A DNA stretch of 64,000 nt from an uncultured Candidatus Micrarchaeota archaeon. GTDB lineage: Archaea; Micrarchaeota; Micrarchaeia; Burarchaeales; Fermentimicrarchaeaceae. The notes under the pieces were generated by a model that did no database searches, had not been told where the DNA came from, and worked only from the letters and a program-made list of their open reading frames with translations. Below are positions 14,961 to 57,313 of this stretch, one piece after another. The stretch covers positions 64,001 through 128,000 of the forward strand of contig CAVXDX010000008.1 of the NCBI GenBank assembly GCA_963760615.1. The letters are read 5' to 3'. Positions within the stretch are counted from its first letter, which is position 1. Each line of letters begins with the position of its first letter. The position numbers and the translations under genes were made by a program.

Positions 14961-15968
14961 TCAGACACGGAGCTTGTCTATTTCCTCCCTGCTTACAGGC
15001 TTCACAATTATCTTTCTTGAGAGCTTTGCAGGGCCGTATTTCACCAAGACATTTTTCTGCTTTGCATCTGAGTAGGCTGCAGTGAGCTGCGCTGCAAGCT
15101 TTACCGCTGCATCTGTTTTTTTGTCCTGAAGGATTGTTATGGGACTCCCGACATTGGGGACGTCAAATGCATAATCAGATTTGTCCTTTAGGCTGATTAG
15201 CATCTTATTCTCTCTTTCATTCCTGCCGACAATTATCTTGTTCTCCCCGAAACGGAAATGTCTGCCCACCTTCAGGAGCTGCATGTCTTTCATGGTCACT
15301 TTCTCCCTATGCTTGAGCAAATCTCTGACCTTGCTTGCAAATTCCTTGTAGGTCAGCAGGCATCCGCCGCCAGACGAGGGATAGTCTGTTATGCCAAATT
15401 TCTTGGCAAGGGCAATCTGCGGTTTTCTTGTCCTCCCCTCTATGGCAAGCAGTTTACCTCTGTCAACCCACCCCCTTTTCTCAGCCTCAGTCATTGGCAA
15501 TAGCTTCGCAGAGAGCGGCCTGAGCAGTTTCCCCTCCAAGCCTGCCTCCTTTTCTATAAGCTTCAACGCCCTCATGTGCTGGCTCATGGGCCTCTGGTTC
15601 AATACTTCTCCTGTGAGGATGAATTTCGCCCCGATTTTTTCGGAGTATGCCTTTGCCTTCTTCAATGTATATATCCTGCAGTCTATGCACGGATTCATCC
15701 CTGAGCCGTAGCCGAATTTGGGTTTTCTCACAACCATGATGTATTCATTCCCTTTCGCCATCACCTTCAGGGGGATTTTGAATTTCTTGGAGACTTCGAC
15801 TGCATAGCATCGGCCTTTCTGGTCGCACATGCAAAAAGGAGAGGTGAACTTCAATGCCTCTACATCTATTCCCTGGTCCAGCATGAGTTTCACTGCCAGC
15901 GTTGAATCCAGCCCGCCTGAAAGCAGCGCAACTGCCTTGATTCTCTTTGCTCTCTGTTTCTTTGCCAT
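14961..15968 (-). CDS. ThiI-like PP-loop tRNA thiolation protein
   Basis: LLSGGLDS PP-loop, NPCIDCR, TGEVLNQRPMSQ, GGCLLT; ATG at 15968 with GGTGAG SD. Confidence 0.8.
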   Translation of the reverse strand: MAKKQRAKRIKAVALLSGGLDSTLAVKLMLDQGIDVEALKFTSPFCMCDQKGRCYAVEVSKKFKIPLKVMAKGNEYIMVVRKPKFGYGSGMNPCIDCRIYTLKKAKAYSEKIGAKFILTGEVLNQRPMSQHMRALKLIEKEAGLEGKLLRPLSAKLLPMTEAEKRGWVDRGKLLAIEGRTRKPQIALAKKFGITDYPSSGGGCLLTYKEFASKVRDLLKHREKVTMKDMQLLKVGRHFRFGENKIIVGRNERENKMLISLKDKSDYAFDVPNVGSPITILQDKKTDAAVKLAAQLTAAYSDAKQKNVLVKYGPAKLSRKIIVKPVSREEIDKLRV

Positions 15969-15986
15969 GATGAGCTCACCAGTTAA

Positions 15987-17231
15987 CAACACGAGCGGGA
16001 AATCCCACACCTTTCAAAAGTGGGATGAAAGCGAACCATAAGAGAAAATTCACCTCTTCCAGTATATATAGCTTTTCACTGGAAAATACCCCTCCCAGAG
16101 GGTTATAAAGAGAAAAAACTCAGTAATGCTTGACATCCTGGAATGGAGGCAACTCCTTTTTCTCAAGAAACTCAACCACTTCCTTATGCCTGCTCAGCCT
16201 CTCAAGCTCGTTCACAAAATCCTGCGCTTTTGGAGTATAATACTGGCTATTCCCGTATACCATCGCTACAGCGACCCCAGTTTCCCTCCCTCCAAGCTCT
16301 TTCAGCAAGCTCTTTTGGTCCACTGGTTTTATTATAACTCCAACTCCCTTATCCTCAGTTGCATAGAATGAGAATTTATCCTTCTGGTCGACTCTCCCAA
16401 ACTCGAGAATATTTCCATTCGCGTCAAGCCTTACAAAAATTTTTGGGGTTTCTTTCTTAGAGTAGCCAACCCCCTCAAGAGTGCTCTCCCTGTAGGTTTC
16501 ACCAGCTCTCATTTCTTCCTTGAGTCTCTGAGCCTCTTGGTGGATAGTTCCCGCATCCTTATAGCCAACCTTTATCTCGTTTCCAAGCTCGCCCCCAAGG
16601 TTCTCAATGAGCTCCCTAGATGCTATCTTAATATATGGTTTGCTGAGTCTGCCAAGCTCACCATTATTGGTTAGTATAACATTTGGGCTCTCAAGCAATC
16701 TGTAATCAATATTATCGCCCTTCACATCAACGAGCAGTTTCCCTCTGCGAGGTTTTTCAGATGTGAGCCGTATACCCATTGCATCATCGGTTTTGAACAT
16801 GCCGAATGAGGACTGCGTCTTAAAACCATCCTTCAAAAGTGCAGGCCCTTCAAGATGTCTGCTTCCATCAGCAGAGAATACTGCCTTGAAAAAAGAGGTT
16901 TTTACAGCGACTCCCTTGTGGGTTATGGAGATTGGGTCTATGGTCTCCGTACTCCCATCAGGCCTTTCTATCTTTTTTATGTTAATCTCCTCTCCGAAAA
17001 GAGTTGAGCCATAGAGACTAGGTCTAGCCTGTGCAACTGTTCCGGGCATAAGGTTCACCTCCATTGAATTATGAATTTTTCAGCATCTTCCTGTATAGTC
17101 CTTTCGTATATCATTTTTGCTCATTCTATATTTAAAAATATATGTGTAATATGGGTAATCAGAAATAATTCATCTCAATTTAGCAGAAGCGAGCGAGAAA
17201 CCCACATTCTTCAGAGGTGGGAGCATGTCAC
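15987..17231 (+). mobile_element. Non-autonomous IS200/IS605 derivative: left and right ends enclosing an orphan gene instead of tnpB
   Basis: 15987..16117 aligns with the left end of the 55961..57277 element (about 14 differences in about 130 nt) after the same TTAA; 17190..17231 matches its right end (..GGAGCATGTCAC). Confidence 0.8.
16120..17049 (-). CDS. Orphan protein (about 309 aa) inside IS605 ends
   Basis: Long ORF; GGAGGTG SD before ATG 17049 (ORF track start 17064); no recognisable motif. Confidence 0.8.
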   Translation of the reverse strand: MPGTVAQARPSLYGSTLFGEEINIKKIERPDGSTETIDPISITHKGVAVKTSFFKAVFSADGSRHLEGPALLKDGFKTQSSFGMFKTDDAMGIRLTSEKPRRGKLLVDVKGDNIDYRLLESPNVILTNNGELGRLSKPYIKIASRELIENLGGELGNEIKVGYKDAGTIHQEAQRLKEEMRAGETYRESTLEGVGYSKKETPKIFVRLDANGNILEFGRVDQKDKFSFYATEDKGVGVIIKPVDQKSLLKELGGRETGVAVAMVYGNSQYYTPKAQDFVNELERLSRHKEVVEFLEKKELPPFQDVKHY

Positions 17232-17445
17232 AATCACTGTACCCTTACTCTCCCTCTTTTCTAAGTTCAGTATGTCAAATTTCCGGTTTTCCGCCACAGC
17301 AATTTTGGGCAGCAGCATTACCGCTTAAATTGTTCATCTTGATACTTAAGGCAATGCTCGAAATTCGAAAAACACATTAATAAATATTGCTTGCATAAAG
17401 ATAGTGCGCTAGGAGGTAGCGTATTAAAGTGCAATATCTACGAGA

Positions 17446-17537
17446 GGGCCCGTGGCGCAGCCTGGATAGCGCGGCAAGATAATTGTCCCGCAAGCCTTCT
17501 AAGCTGAAGGTCGTGGGTTCAAATCCCACCGGGCCCG
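17446..17537 (+). tRNA. tRNA-Arg(TCT) with 17-nt non-canonical intron at 29/30
   Basis: Body nearly identical to the tRNA-Arg at 55197; extra 17477..17493 forms a BHB (GCGG/CCGC helix, CAA and AAG bulges). Confidence 0.88.
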
Positions 17538-17566
17538 CTTGATATTTTAAAAAAGAGGGTGGCAAA

Positions 17567-55960: not shown

Positions 55961-57277
55961 GTGACATGCTCCACCCCTAAAGGGTGTGGGCTTCCTGCTT
56001 CACAGACGTTGCTACTGCAACATCTCTCTCCTTTTGCAAGGAATTGCAGGCGTTACTTCCCCCTTGCCCAGGGGTAGCTCTCATGAGTATATTGCGTGCA
56101 GCATTCAAGTCTCTGTCTATTAACAAACCACAATTGGGGCAGGCATATATCCTGTCTCCGAGACTCAAGTCGTCCCTGATGTTTCCGCACCTGCTGCACA
56201 TCTTTGAGGTATTTTCAGGGTCTACAAACACCACTCTGCATCCAGCTCCCTCCGCCTTGTATGCAAGCATGTTTGCAAACATACTCCATCCTGCATCATT
56301 GATGAACTTGCCGTAATGCTGCTCTGACATTTCTTTTGAGGCAAGTCTTTCTGATGCTATGAAGGAATAATCATTCACCAAATCAGTTGTTGCCTTATGT
56401 AAGAAGTCTCTTCTTGTGTTGGCCACCTTCTCATGCAGTTTTGCTACTCTTACCTTTGCCTTCTTTCTGTTGCCGCTTCCTTTCTTTTTCTTCGAGAACT
56501 TTCTTTGTATGAAGGCAAGCCTATCCTCATGCTTCATGAGGTGTCTTGGGTTTTTTATCATTTTGCCATTTGAGAGAGTTGCAAATGTCTTCAATCCCAG
56601 GTCTATACCTACTGCCTCTCCCCCGTTTTCTCGTGGAATCTTTCCAAGTGTCTCAACAGTGAAAATAGCAAACCATTTTCCTGAAGACTCTCTTTTCAGA
56701 GTCAGGGTTTTGATTCTGCCTTTTATCTCTCTGTGCTTATTTACTGCAATCTCACCAAAAGGAGTCACTGTGAGTTTCTTATCCAGAGAGAAGCCAGACC
56801 CATACTGCGGATAGTACAAGCTCTTCATCCTGTCAATTGATTTGAAGCGAGGGAAACCACATTCCACTCCTTTTCTTCTCAGCTTGAAAACTCTCGTTAC
56901 TGAATTATAAACTCTATGTGCAATCTCCTGCTGGGTTTGGGAATAGAGACCACACTCTTTTACCATCAGCTGTAGCGTATTCTTAGTTGGGAAGTAGCCA
57001 AAGTCTTTGTAGGTTTGTTTGCAGTGCTCCAGAAGCTCATTCCACATGTTCTTTGCTATCCAAATATGCTGAAACATCTCCTTCTCCTGCTTCTTTGAGG
57101 GATATATCCTGAATTTGTAGGCTCTCATAGACGTTATTTATGTCTATTTTTCCCTTTATAAACCTCTGGGAGGGGTAACTTTCCAGTGAAAGTTATATAT
57201 ACTGGAAGAGCTAAATTTTCCCTTATGGTTCGCTTTCATCCCACCCTTAAAAGGTGTGGGATTTCCCGCTCACGTTG
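55961..57277 (-). mobile_element. IS200/IS605-family element, tnpB-only
   Basis: Subterminal hairpins at about 57238..57262 and about 55970..55991; TTAA immediately 5' of the left end; right end finishes in GTCAC; no tnpA. Confidence 0.9.
55977..57128 (-). CDS. tnpB: RNA-guided endonuclease TnpB
   Basis: MRAYKFRIYP HTH, GIDLG, SERL, CSRC...CPNC zinc ribbon, DRDLNAARNI. Confidence 0.96.
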   Translation of the reverse strand: MRAYKFRIYPSKKQEKEMFQHIWIAKNMWNELLEHCKQTYKDFGYFPTKNTLQLMVKECGLYSQTQQEIAHRVYNSVTRVFKLRRKGVECGFPRFKSIDRMKSLYYPQYGSGFSLDKKLTVTPFGEIAVNKHREIKGRIKTLTLKRESSGKWFAIFTVETLGKIPRENGGEAVGIDLGLKTFATLSNGKMIKNPRHLMKHEDRLAFIQRKFSKKKKGSGNRKKAKVRVAKLHEKVANTRRDFLHKATTDLVNDYSFIASERLASKEMSEQHYGKFINDAGWSMFANMLAYKAEGAGCRVVFVDPENTSKMCSRCGNIRDDLSLGDRIYACPNCGLLIDRDLNAARNILMRATPGQGGSNACNSLQKERDVAVATSVKQEAHTL

Positions 57278-57313
57278 TTAAATAATAGAATGTAAAATAT
57301 TTACGATGAGCTT

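What the first reader, a model, noticed from the sequence alone, without database searches (positions are those of the whole stretch)
15987..17231. IS200/IS605 ends carrying an unrelated orphan gene in place of tnpB
Seen: 15987..16117 copies the left end of the tnpB element at 55961..57277 (about 14 differences in about 130 nt by hand). It includes the hairpin and promoter and follows the same TTAA. 17190..17231 copies its right end, finishing GGAGCATGTCAC followed by AAT in both places. Between them lies a 309-aa orphan with its own antisense promoter, and its stop is 2-3 nt from the end of left-end homology, so the whole tnpB ORF is replaced. The left hairpin of the copy is partly mismatched. 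Known: Y1 TnpA mobilises any DNA between intact ends in trans. Inference: a gene-capture (cargo) IS605 derivative that could spread orphan genes, or an orphan inserted into a decayed IS.
Basis: partly seen in the sequence, partly recalled or inferred. Interest (0 to 1): 0.78.

Follow-up and report, generated by a model that had tools for sequence, protein, structure and literature searches.

The report
Orphan gene bracketed by IS605-type ends
In a small Micrarchaeota (Fermentimicrarchaeum-like) genome, a fast-evolving gene of unknown function has left its usual chromosomal place and now sits between a real left end and a right-end-type hairpin of a tnpB insertion-sequence family, so it may have been carried there as transposon cargo, but the two ends come from different elements and nothing shows that it has moved more than once.

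Summary
Window 15987-16117 is a 131-nt left end (LE), about 90% identical to the LE of the tnpB element at 55961-57277. It abuts the same TTAA. Position 17231 is a family-type right terminus (GGAGCATGTCAC). No tnpB remnant lies between them.

The interpretation needs changes:
- **The "right end" is a separate element.** It is a 48-nt single-hairpin mini-element (17184-17231, own TTAG target). It has an LE-type 5' half of another subfamily and dozens of copies in the genus.
- **The insertion overshoots the right end.** The closest relatives (G003, L031) have an uninterrupted TTAA|ATCATG site here. Their homology stops at 15986 and resumes only at 17325, 93 nt beyond the right end.
- **The slot is variable.** Relatives carry other genes here, without IS ends.
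- **The orphan has moved.** Its roughly 10-member family sits beside an AAA_18 kinase gene in at least five other lineages. The own genome lacks it there. Its nearest relative (55%) is from another genus.

No Y1 TnpA was found in this genome or its family. The unit is single-copy and its hairpins are weakened.

Verdict: a composite IS200/IS605-end-flanked cargo unit. It was probably moved once (about 50%) and is now inert. The rival is a multi-event patchwork (about 35%). Interest is moderate.

The parts
15983..15986 (+). TTAA target tetranucleotide in front of the left end. It lies 14 nt upstream of the ThiI-like start codon (15968, minus strand).
   Evidence: The same TTAA precedes the reference LE (57278-57281). 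TTAA or TTAG precedes all 28 LEs of the genus. The TTAA is present and uninterrupted in G003 (L018) and L031.
15987..16117 (+). Left-end remnant of a tnpB-only IS200/IS605 element (reference subfamily). It holds the hairpin (16002-16008 / 16020-16026), the palindromic TATATATA block (about 16062-16071) and the tnpB TATA box TTATAAAG (16103-16110). It is truncated about 10 nt before the position where tnpB would start.
   Evidence: 89.7% identity to the LE of the element at 55961-57277. The ssDNA fold is -5.8 kcal/mol against -8.6 for the reference.
16120..17049 (-). Orphan gene of 309 aa, antisense to the orientation of the element. Its function is unknown.
   Evidence: No Pfam, NCBIfam, PHROG or PADLOC match. 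Only about 10 family clusters exist among 1.84 billion representatives. AF2 model: pLDDT 79, pTM 0.78, with no convincing fold match. GC3 is 0.465 against 0.59-0.60 in neighbouring genes.
17050..17179 (-). Upstream region of the orphan: Shine-Dalgarno GGAGGTGA next to the ATG, and an AT-rich TATA region at about 17126-17139.
   Evidence: Read directly from the sequence. It is unique in the genome.
17180..17231 (+). TTAG target (17180-17183) plus a 48-nt single-hairpin mini-element (17184-17231). It combines an LE-type 5' half (CAGAAGCGAGCGAGAAACCCAC...GGTGGGA) with a right-end tail (GCATGTCAC). It serves as the right end of the unit.
   Evidence: Members of the same roughly 50-nt family lie at 8 or more other sites in the own genome. 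Dozens lie in G001-G004. Its 5' half matches LEs of the TTAG subfamily. Fold energy is -4.7 kcal/mol.
17232..17324 (-). Unique 93-nt piece absent from relatives. On the minus strand it reads as a 29-codon ORF (ATG at 17318-17316) that ends at the right terminus. Its Shine-Dalgarno and start context resembles the start of gene X in L031.
   Evidence: No match in the genome or in any fetched locus. Comparison with L031.
17325..17360 (.). Second TTAA (17325-17328) and the displaced ancestral promoter region (ATTGTTCATCTTGATACTTAAGG). Homology with G003 and L031 resumes here.
   Evidence: BLAST and alignments.
14961..15968 (-). Flanking ThiI/NFACT-R_2 tRNA-thiolation-like gene. The insertion has separated it from its native TATA box.
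   Evidence: Pfam match. Orthologues at 84-90% identity in relatives.
17446..17538 (+). Flanking tRNA gene of 93 nt, probably carrying an intron.
   Evidence: ARAGORN and Rfam tRNA, 43 bits. Conserved in G003.
55961..57277 (-). Reference full-length tnpB-only element: LE at 57277, tnpB at 55977-57128 (383 aa), right end at 55961.
   Evidence: NCBIfam guided_TnpB, 299 bits. It is one of four intact family copies in the genome.

Best explanation
This is a composite, non-autonomous IS200/IS605-type unit. A 131-nt LE remnant of one tnpB-IS subfamily and a 48-nt LE/RE-hybrid mini-element of another subfamily lie on the same strand. Together they bracket a complete orphan gene with its promoter.

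Most likely a Y1 (HUH) TnpA supplied in trans treated these two ends as one transposon and pasted the unit as single-stranded DNA 3' of a TTAA. That TTAA lies between the ThiI-like start codon and its TATA box. This would have relocated the orphan, possibly horizontally, from its conserved home next to an AAA_18 kinase gene.

The unit now looks inert. No tnpA was found in the genome or its family, it has no omega-RNA scaffold for TnpB homing, both hairpins are weakened, and only one copy exists.

Two side effects are inferred. The LE's tnpB promoter now fires antisense into the orphan. The ThiI-like gene must be transcribed from within the unit or by read-through.

**Shown:**
- The ends are real.
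- The left junction is exact.
- The DNA is an insertion relative to relatives.
- No tnpB remnant is present.
- The orphan is relocated.
- The right end is of the mini-element type.

**Inferred:**
- The unit moved in one TnpA-mediated step.
- The 93 nt beyond the right end is a separate indel or the remnant of a former slot gene.
For: - **Left junction.** The LE terminus (CAAC...) sits exactly 3' of TTAA, which is the family rule for all 28 LEs in the genus. G003 and L031 have that TTAA followed directly by non-IS sequence.
- **Right terminus.** A family-type right terminus lies on the same strand 1245 nt away. It is the only LE..RE pair at IS-like spacing without tnpB among 28 LEs in six genomes. 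With about 9 mini-elements in 1.14 Mb, I estimate a correctly oriented one within 1.3 kb by chance at about 0.5%.
- **Flank after the right end.** The 5 nt after the right end (AATCA) match the continuation of the empty site TTA|AATCA in G003 and L031.
- **Orphan family location.** The family always sits beside AAA_18 and the acidic mini-ORF in G002, G006/L002, L003/4, L119/120 and probably L118. The own genome has that locus on C3 without the orphan.
- **Incongruent similarity.** The orphan is 55% identical to G006 (another genus) but 26-40% to same-genus copies. Neighbouring genes show the opposite ranking.
- **No tnpB remnant** inside the unit.
- **Autonomous relatives exist.** LE-tnpA-tnpB-RE copies with the same LE hairpin occur in other Micrarchaeota and in Thermoplasmata.
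Against: - Homology with relatives resumes only at 17325, 93 nt beyond the right end. A precise LE-RE insertion therefore needs a second event.
- The right end is a complete mini-element with its own TTAG target. It comes from a different subfamily than the LE and carries the LE-type sequence (GAGAAA) 5' of the hairpin, where true right ends have GGAAG. Whether it can serve as a right end is untested.
- The unit is single-copy in the genome, in the genus and in the protein collections.
- No Y1 TnpA was found in the own genome (91% complete), in 6 genus genomes or in 10 family genomes.
- Both hairpins are weaker than those of the reference.
- The slot upstream of the ThiI-like gene turns over genes without IS ends. 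L031 holds a 263-aa gene X, and the P0005 contig holds a 167-aa gene.
- How the LE came to be fused 2 nt from the orphan's stop codon is unexplained.
Confidence: 0.5

Rival explanations
1. The locus is a patchwork scar and was never a transposable unit. Under this view a normal tnpB IS inserted at the TTAA. Later, illegitimate recombination or the cassette turnover typical of this slot replaced tnpB, its right end and adjacent DNA with the orphan cassette. The 48-nt mini-element inserted independently at a TTAG upstream of the orphan promoter. The LE/RE bracketing is then incidental.
For: - The mini-element is an abundant, independent repeat with its own target.
- The LE and the right end belong to different subfamilies.
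- The extra DNA extends 93 nt past the right end.
- The slot holds unrelated genes in L031 and in the P0005 contig without IS ends.
- LE remnants next to ordinary genes are common in the wider family: L126 phosphoesterase, L127, L159, and L166 with AbiEi/AbiEii and no right end.
- There is no TnpA and no second copy.
Against: - It needs at least three independent events within 1.3 kb.
- Chance placement of a correctly oriented mini-element is about 0.5-5% (my estimate).
- Compared with G003, the extra DNA behaves as an insertion at a single point (TTAA^AT) without loss of ancestral bases. That is what transposition gives and replacement does not.
- The AATCA match after the right end would be a coincidence.
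Confidence: 0.33
2. The whole 1.34-kb block (15987-17328), ending in TTAA, moved in one LE-dependent but aberrant event. TnpA would have cleaved at the LE site and at a downstream TTAA. That second site could be the cleavage site in front of a second LE in the donor, or a one-ended event. The block therefore carries the orphan, the mini-element and the 93-nt piece. The mini-element was a passenger, not the right end.
For: - Relative to G003 and L031, the extra DNA is bounded by TTAA on both sides (15983-15986 and 17325-17328), with the LE terminus flush on the left.
- This explains the 93 nt without a second event.
- The chemistry is that of normal LE cleavage applied twice. This is inferred from the established IS608 mechanism, from my own knowledge.
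Against: - About 16 nt left of the second TTAA (CATTACCGCTTAA) resembles the Shine-Dalgarno and start region of gene X in L031 (CATCACCTTCTAA). That suggests this part is ancestral to the slot, not imported.
- I know of no precedent for LE-LE excision.
- The AATCA match would be a coincidence.
Confidence: 0.1
3. The arrangement is an assembly artefact. In this metagenome-assembled genome, a fragment from another strain or organism was joined in at the repeated IS ends.
For: The genome is a 16-contig MAG with 2.6% estimated contamination. The segment is bounded by repeats, and its GC3 differs from that of its neighbours.
Against: - The repeats are short (131 and 48 nt) and only about 90% identical to other copies, so they share few long exact k-mers.
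- The left junction to the ThiI-like gene and the right junction to the tRNA region are each continuous with unique sequence on a 212-kb contig.
Confidence: 0.04

Closest known systems
PATEs (palindrome-associated transposable elements): non-autonomous IS200/IS605 derivatives
   Same: Both have LE and RE hairpin ends of a tnpB/tnpA IS family with no transposase, and both depend on TnpA in trans. Typical PATE-like deletion derivatives of this same family exist in the genus, with the LE joined to the omega-RNA region and the right end, 140-350 nt long (L115:793-1109). The concept is as described for Geobacillus stearothermophilus in PMC10055086.
   Different: PATEs carry no protein-coding gene and usually keep the omega-RNA. 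This unit carries a complete unrelated 309-aa gene with its own promoter and has no omega-RNA scaffold. Its two ends come from different subfamilies.
Laboratory mini-IS608/ISDra2 transposons (a marker cassette between LE and RE, with TnpA in trans)
   Same: Any DNA between an LE and an RE on the same strand is excised and inserted 3' of the target tetranucleotide by TnpA. This is established mechanism, cited from my own knowledge and from the reviews listed, such as PMC5027513.
   Different: Those are engineered and proven to move. This one is natural, its right end is a hybrid hairpin of untested competence, and no mobility has been shown.
IS605 stem-loops linked to lipoprotein genes on Borrelia plasmids (Delihas 2009, PMC2775950)
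   Same: IS605-specific end hairpins are found free-standing and attached to non-transposon genes after the IS has decayed.
   Different: In Borrelia, single stem-loops sit at the 3' ends of genes and seem to be kept as RNA structures. Here an LE and a right terminus bracket the whole gene in transposon-like order, at a site that is empty in relatives.
Solo LTRs and one-ended or compound capture by IS91/ISCR-type HUH elements (analogy only)
   Same: The 48-nt mini-element looks like the product of recombination between the two end hairpins, as a solo LTR does. Capture of adjacent DNA by use of a surrogate end is how ISCR elements pick up genes (my own knowledge).
   Different: The transposase families and mechanisms differ. 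No rolling-circle transposase is involved.

Membership tests
IS200/IS605 family, non-autonomous derivative | Left end with a subterminal hairpin homologous to a family LE | tested here: met
   89.7% identity over 136 nt to the LE of the tnpB element at 55961-57277. The hairpin core CCCAC/GTGGG is kept.
IS200/IS605 family, non-autonomous derivative | Insertion 3' of a conserved target tetranucleotide, without target duplication, at a site that is empty in relatives | tested here: inconclusive
   The left side is met: TTAA|CAAC, with the TTAA uninterrupted in G003 and L031. On the right side only AATCA matches after GTCAC, and homology resumes 93 nt later at a second TTAA.
IS200/IS605 family, non-autonomous derivative | Right end with a subterminal hairpin and the family terminal sequence, on the same strand as the LE | tested here: met
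   It ends ...GGTGGGAGCATGTCAC at 17231 on the + strand. However, it is an LE/RE hybrid mini-element with its own TTAG target, and it carries GAGAAA where true right ends have GGAAG.
IS200/IS605 family, non-autonomous derivative | A cognate Y1 TnpA available to mobilise it | tested here: not met
   No PF01797 match in the own genome (91% complete), 6 genus genomes or 10 family genomes; 3 of 29 genomes in the order have one. Autonomous copies with the same LE hairpin exist in other Micrarchaeota and Thermoplasmata.
IS200/IS605 family, non-autonomous derivative | Evidence of mobility: several copies, or presence/absence with exact ends | tested here: not met
   One copy only in the genome, the genus and the protein collections. 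Presence/absence against G003 and L031 is not exact at the right end.
tnpB-carrying IS (IS1341 type) | tnpB ORF and omega-RNA scaffold next to the right end | tested here: not met
   No TnpB similarity (best E 0.14). No nucleotide homology to the reference beyond the last 43 nt.
PATE | No protein-coding capacity between the ends | tested here: not met
   A complete 309-aa ORF with Shine-Dalgarno sequence, promoter and a confident AF2 model lies between the ends.
Transporter IS (an IS with a passenger gene) | A gene unrelated to transposition lies between ends that are shown to function | tested here: inconclusive
   The passenger is present and unrelated to transposition; its family is chromosomal in five other lineages. 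Function of the ends could not be tested.

The most novel reading that the evidence does not exclude
This is a natural case of gene capture by IS200/IS605 ends. An LE remnant and a 48-nt single-hairpin mini-element acted together as a compound single-strand transposon. The transposon moved a fast-evolving orphan gene out of its conserved chromosomal locus, possibly between Micrarchaeota genera, using a TnpA not encoded in the recipient lineage.
Probability: 0.4. Interest if true: 0.6.

Novelty: new variant of a known kind. Interest (0 to 1): 0.42.

Why it matters
IS200/IS605 elements are the carriers of TnpB and IscB, the ancestors of Cas12 and Cas9. They are generally seen as minimal elements that move only themselves or gene-less PATEs.

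A natural unit in which family ends carry an unrelated gene would show that peel-and-paste transposition can shuffle accessory genes. Here the recipients would be DPANN archaea, which have tiny genomes and few other known vehicles. It would also show that abundant 48-nt mini-elements can supply ends for such capture.

As it stands the case is a single, probably dead copy. Its value is as a concrete, testable example, with ends, an empty site and an ancestral locus all defined. It is not proof of a new mechanism.

Tried and rejected
- **Orphan function.** Pfam, NCBIfam, PHROGs and PADLOC gave no family. The ESM Atlas feature search gave nothing. The AF2 model is good, but fold searches gave nothing convincing. 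Foldseek against PDB had a best E-value of 0.004 and TM-scores below 0.2. The Atlas search gave TM 0.34 or less. VIA wide gave a maximum Z of 5.7, below the stated noise level of 7-8. The function stays unknown.
- **tnpB remnants.** I looked between the ends by tblastn and by sensitive blastn and found none.
- **Rfam.** Scans of the locus, the reference element and the AAA_18-locus intergenic region returned only the tRNA above its family threshold; the one other row (Plastid-ycf2, 24 bits against a gathering score of 65.7, on the opposite strand over the same tRNA coordinates) is noise.
- **A clean empty site for a mini-element.** I compared G000 C3:51248 with G003. G003 keeps an AGCATG remnant, so it is an imprecise deletion and not informative about exact ends.
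- **The 93-nt piece.** I searched for its 29-codon ORF and for gene X of L031 elsewhere and found no homologues.
- **The closest strain contig.** P0005 (90% ThiI-like identity) had no DNA available.
- **Direct repeats around the orphan cassette.** Only chance-level 10-15-nt matches were found.
- **The bacterial sigma-70 promoter scan** is uninformative for an archaeon.
- **Guide/cleavage-site pairing rules.** I considered inferring them for the hairpins but dropped this, because I could not verify the rule from the tools.
Full report
**Setting**

The window is G000:C8:64001-128000 of a 1.14-Mb, 16-contig genome with 91% completeness. A same-genus genome, G002 (its 1,178,830-base contig C1), has the same length as the record named Candidatus Fermentimicrarchaeum limneticum Sv326. 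The organism is therefore a Fermentimicrarchaeum-like member of the Micrarchaeota (DPANN archaea).

**Check of the observation**

- Window 15983-16117 aligns with the reverse complement of 57147-57281 at 89.7% over 136 nt. Both copies follow TTAA and start CAAC.
- Both copies contain the CCCAC/GTGGG hairpin, a palindromic TATATATA block and the TTATAAAG box. In the reference that box lies about 20 nt before the tnpB ATG.
- At the other side, 17190-17231 matches the reference right-end hairpin and stops at GGAGCATGTCAC.
- The 309-aa minus-strand ORF (16120-17049) ends 2 nt from the last base of LE homology.
- The copy's LE hairpin has lost two top pairs: -5.8 kcal/mol against -8.6.
- Nothing between the ends resembles tnpB. 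The best tblastn E-value is 0.14, and nucleotide homology to the reference is limited to the last 43 nt.

**The IS family**

The genome has four intact tnpB-only copies that are 70-77% identical at the protein level. One is the 383-aa reference, which scores 299 bits against NCBIfam guided_TnpB.

No Y1 transposase was found. PF01797 gave no hit in the own genome, in six genomes of the genus or in ten of the family. Three of 29 genomes in the order have one.

Across the six genomes of the genus I found 28 LEs:
- about 13 are followed by a full tnpB, with a right end about 1270-1300 nt from the hairpin;
- about 9 are PATE-like deletion derivatives, with the right end at 140-350 nt;
- one is the unit studied here. 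It is the only LE..RE pair at IS-like spacing with no tnpB.

Every LE follows TTAA or TTAG, and the choice goes with the LE subfamily. One subfamily reads TTAA|CAA..GAGCGGGAAAT and the other reads TTAG|CAGAAGCGAGCGAGAAA.

An exact-pattern scan of GTDB species genomes found the LE hairpin in many archaea: Micrarchaeota, Thermoplasmata, Marsarchaeota, Bathyarchaeia and others. Some of these are autonomous LE-tnpA-tnpB-RE copies, for example L128, L152, L153, L165 and L169. A matching transposase therefore exists in the wider community, but not in this lineage as sampled.

**The right end is a separate mini-element**

The sequence TTAG|CAGAAGCGAGCGAGAAACCCACATTCTTCAGAGGTGGGAGCATGTCAC (17180-17231) is 93% identical in its first 44 nt to the LE of another element (C8:33374-33417). 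It then switches to the right-end tail.

The same roughly 50-nt LE/RE hybrid occurs at eight or more other sites in this genome. It occurs dozens of times in G001-G004 at 85-96% identity.

True right ends of full-length copies carry GGAAG 5' of the hairpin. LEs and these mini-elements carry GAAA. So the LE (reference subfamily) and the right end (the other subfamily) do not derive from one element whose tnpB was swapped out.

**The site in relatives**

G003 is in the same genus, with a ThiI-like protein 87% identical. It reads ...GCCATAAGCTCACTGATTAA|ATCATGCATTTTGGATATTTAAAGCAACGC... and then the same tRNA. The metagenome contig L031 (87%) reads ...GAGTTAA|ATCATGCCTTTTGGATATTTAAAT, followed by an unrelated 263-aa gene X. 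That gene is flanked by a second, similar promoter copy.

In both relatives, homology to the window stops exactly at the TTAA (15986) and resumes at 17324-17325, at a second TTAA (17325-17328) followed by ATTGTTCATCTTGATACTTAAGG. Three points follow.
- The left junction is a bona fide family-type insertion junction. It lies between the ThiI-like start codon and its TATA box.
- Relative to G003, the extra DNA is an insertion at a single point.
- The extra DNA is 15987 to about 17324. It includes 93 nt beyond the right terminus.

Directly after GTCAC the window reads AATCA, which equals the continuation of the empty site (TTA|AATCA). Similarity is then lost.

The 93-nt piece is unique. On the minus strand it is a 29-codon ORF whose Shine-Dalgarno and ATG context resembles the start of gene X in L031. 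It may therefore be the stump of a former gene of this slot.

The closest contig (P0005, 90%) has yet another gene, of 167 aa, upstream of the ThiI-like gene. The slot is variable.

**The orphan has moved**

The family is tiny. There are three clusters among 5.8 billion proteins and about ten among 1.84 billion representatives.

The homologue lies just downstream of an AAA_18 kinase gene and upstream of a small acidic ORF and a DUF87 gene in these lineages:
- G002 (same genus);
- G006/L002 (another genus);
- L003/L004;
- L119/L120;
- probably L118.

The own genome has this syntenic block on contig C3. There the AAA_18 stop codon is followed within about 20 nt by the promoter of the acidic ORF, and no orphan is present. 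G003 also lacks it there, and no orphan was found anywhere in G003.

The window's orphan is 55% identical to that of G006 but only 40% and 26% to those of L003 and G002. The neighbouring AAA_18 and DUF87 proteins rank the other way: 68/68% to G006, 75/77% to L003 and 74/71% to G002. Its GC3 (0.465) is well below that of the flanking housekeeping genes, at 0.59-0.60.

Together this indicates relocation, perhaps with a horizontal step.

**What the orphan is**

No family match was found in four libraries. AlphaFold gives a confident model (pLDDT 79, pTM 0.78) of a beta-rich N-terminal part and a helical C-terminal part. No search gave a convincing structural neighbour. It is a real, fast-evolving protein of unknown function.

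**Weighing the explanations**

One-step, TnpA-mediated transposition of LE-orphan-mini-element explains several things:
- the exact left junction;
- the correctly oriented right terminus, which is unlikely by chance (about 0.5% for uniform placement, my estimate from about 9 mini-elements in 1.14 Mb);
- the AATCA flank;
- the single-point insertion;
- the relocation of the gene.

It does not explain the 93 extra nucleotides without a second event. It does not explain how the LE came to be fused 2 nt from the orphan's stop codon. It also requires a hybrid hairpin to work as a right end.

A patchwork of independent events explains the subfamily mismatch, the abundance of mini-elements, the variable slot and the lack of any second copy. 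LE remnants beside ordinary genes are indeed common in the wider family. L126, L127 and L159 are examples. In L166 an AbiEi/AbiEii pair sits in the tnpB position and no right end was found. But this explanation needs three or more coincident events and treats two matches as chance.

A third possibility is an aberrant LE-dependent event ending at the downstream TTAA. It accounts for the whole 1.34-kb block, but it conflicts with the similarity of the block's last 16 nt to L031.

**Present state**

Whatever its origin, the unit shows no sign of current mobility. There is no tnpA, no omega-RNA scaffold, weakened hairpins and a single copy.

Its insertion has two likely consequences, both inferred. 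The LE's tnpB promoter (TTATAAAG, 16103-16110) points into the antisense strand of the orphan. The ThiI-like gene has been cut off from its TATA box, now at about 17340, and must rely on transcription from within the unit.

**Novelty**

Gene-less PATEs and laboratory cargo-bearing mini-IS608 elements are well known. IS605 hairpins attached to unrelated genes have been described in Borrelia (PMC2775950).

A natural gene bracketed by both end types, at a site shown to be empty in relatives, with its ancestral locus identified, is an uncommon and well-defined variant. It is not a new kind of system, and its mobility is unproven.

Noticed in passing
window 17180-17231; also L111:1491-1544, L111:9317-9373, L112:1249-1300, L114, L113: A roughly 48-nt single-hairpin mini-element has the 5' half of an LE and the tail of a right end, preceded by TTAG or TTAA. 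It occurs at 8 or more sites in this genome and dozens in four same-genus genomes (85-96% identity). It could be a minimal mobile unit or a solo-LTR-like product of recombination between LE and RE hairpins.
   Followed up: partly
L031:1520-2500 (same slot as window 15969-17445): In a close relative, the slot between the ThiI-like gene and the tRNA holds an unrelated 263-aa gene. It is flanked by two roughly 24-nt copies of the promoter region (ATCATGCCTTTTGGATATTTAAA / ATTGCTCATTTTCGATATTTAAA). G003 has one copy and no gene, and the P0005 contig has a 167-aa gene. This is a single-gene variable slot with duplicated promoters.
   Followed up: partly
L166:5050-6810: In a Bathyarchaeia genome, a family LE (TTTA|GCACAAGGCGAGCGGG, hairpin, TATA box) is followed at the tnpB position by an AbiEi/AbiEii toxin-antitoxin pair instead of tnpB. 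No right end was found within 1.2 kb downstream.
   Followed up: partly
L125-L204 (genome-contig scan): The same LE hairpin (CCCACA-N10-GTGGGATGAAAGCG) is shared by Micrarchaeota and Thermoplasmata. It also occurs in Marsarchaeota, Bathyarchaeia and Nitrososphaerota, and in a few bacterial MAGs. Autonomous tnpA+tnpB copies occur in some of them. Sharing between Micrarchaeota and their usual Thermoplasmata hosts would fit exchange between symbiont and host.
   Followed up: no
L115:793-1109 (G000:C8:7592-7908): A 316-nt PATE-like derivative of the family: LE hairpin and promoter block, about 170 nt, then a right end with part of the omega-RNA region.
   Followed up: no
L028:1360-1490 (G003:C15, AAA_18 locus): At the position where other lineages carry the orphan, G003 has a roughly 137-nt insert. 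It contains three direct TTGCTCCTAA(A/T)GT repeats and an inverted copy, and may be another small repeat element.
   Followed up: no
L005:2760-2900; L003:1790-1890; L002:7340-7450: A conserved non-coding stretch (AAGCCCGCGCTGGGCTTATCT...GGATGAATGCAGCG..GAGTGGGTGA) lies between the acidic mini-ORF and a zinc-ribbon gene in three lineages. It has no Rfam match and could be an unannotated small RNA.
   Followed up: partly
window 17446-17538: A 93-nt tRNA gene. ARAGORN could not assign its anticodon, while Rfam tRNA scores 43 bits. It probably contains an intron.
   Followed up: no
L002:6176-7290 (G006): In G006, a tnpB of a different subfamily lies about 300 nt downstream of the orphan homologue. 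It shares only the promoter block TTCACTGGAAAGTTAC...TTTATAAAGG and has no CCCAC hairpin LE. Truncated relatives are at G000 C6:5059-5456 and C3:134754-135910.
   Followed up: no
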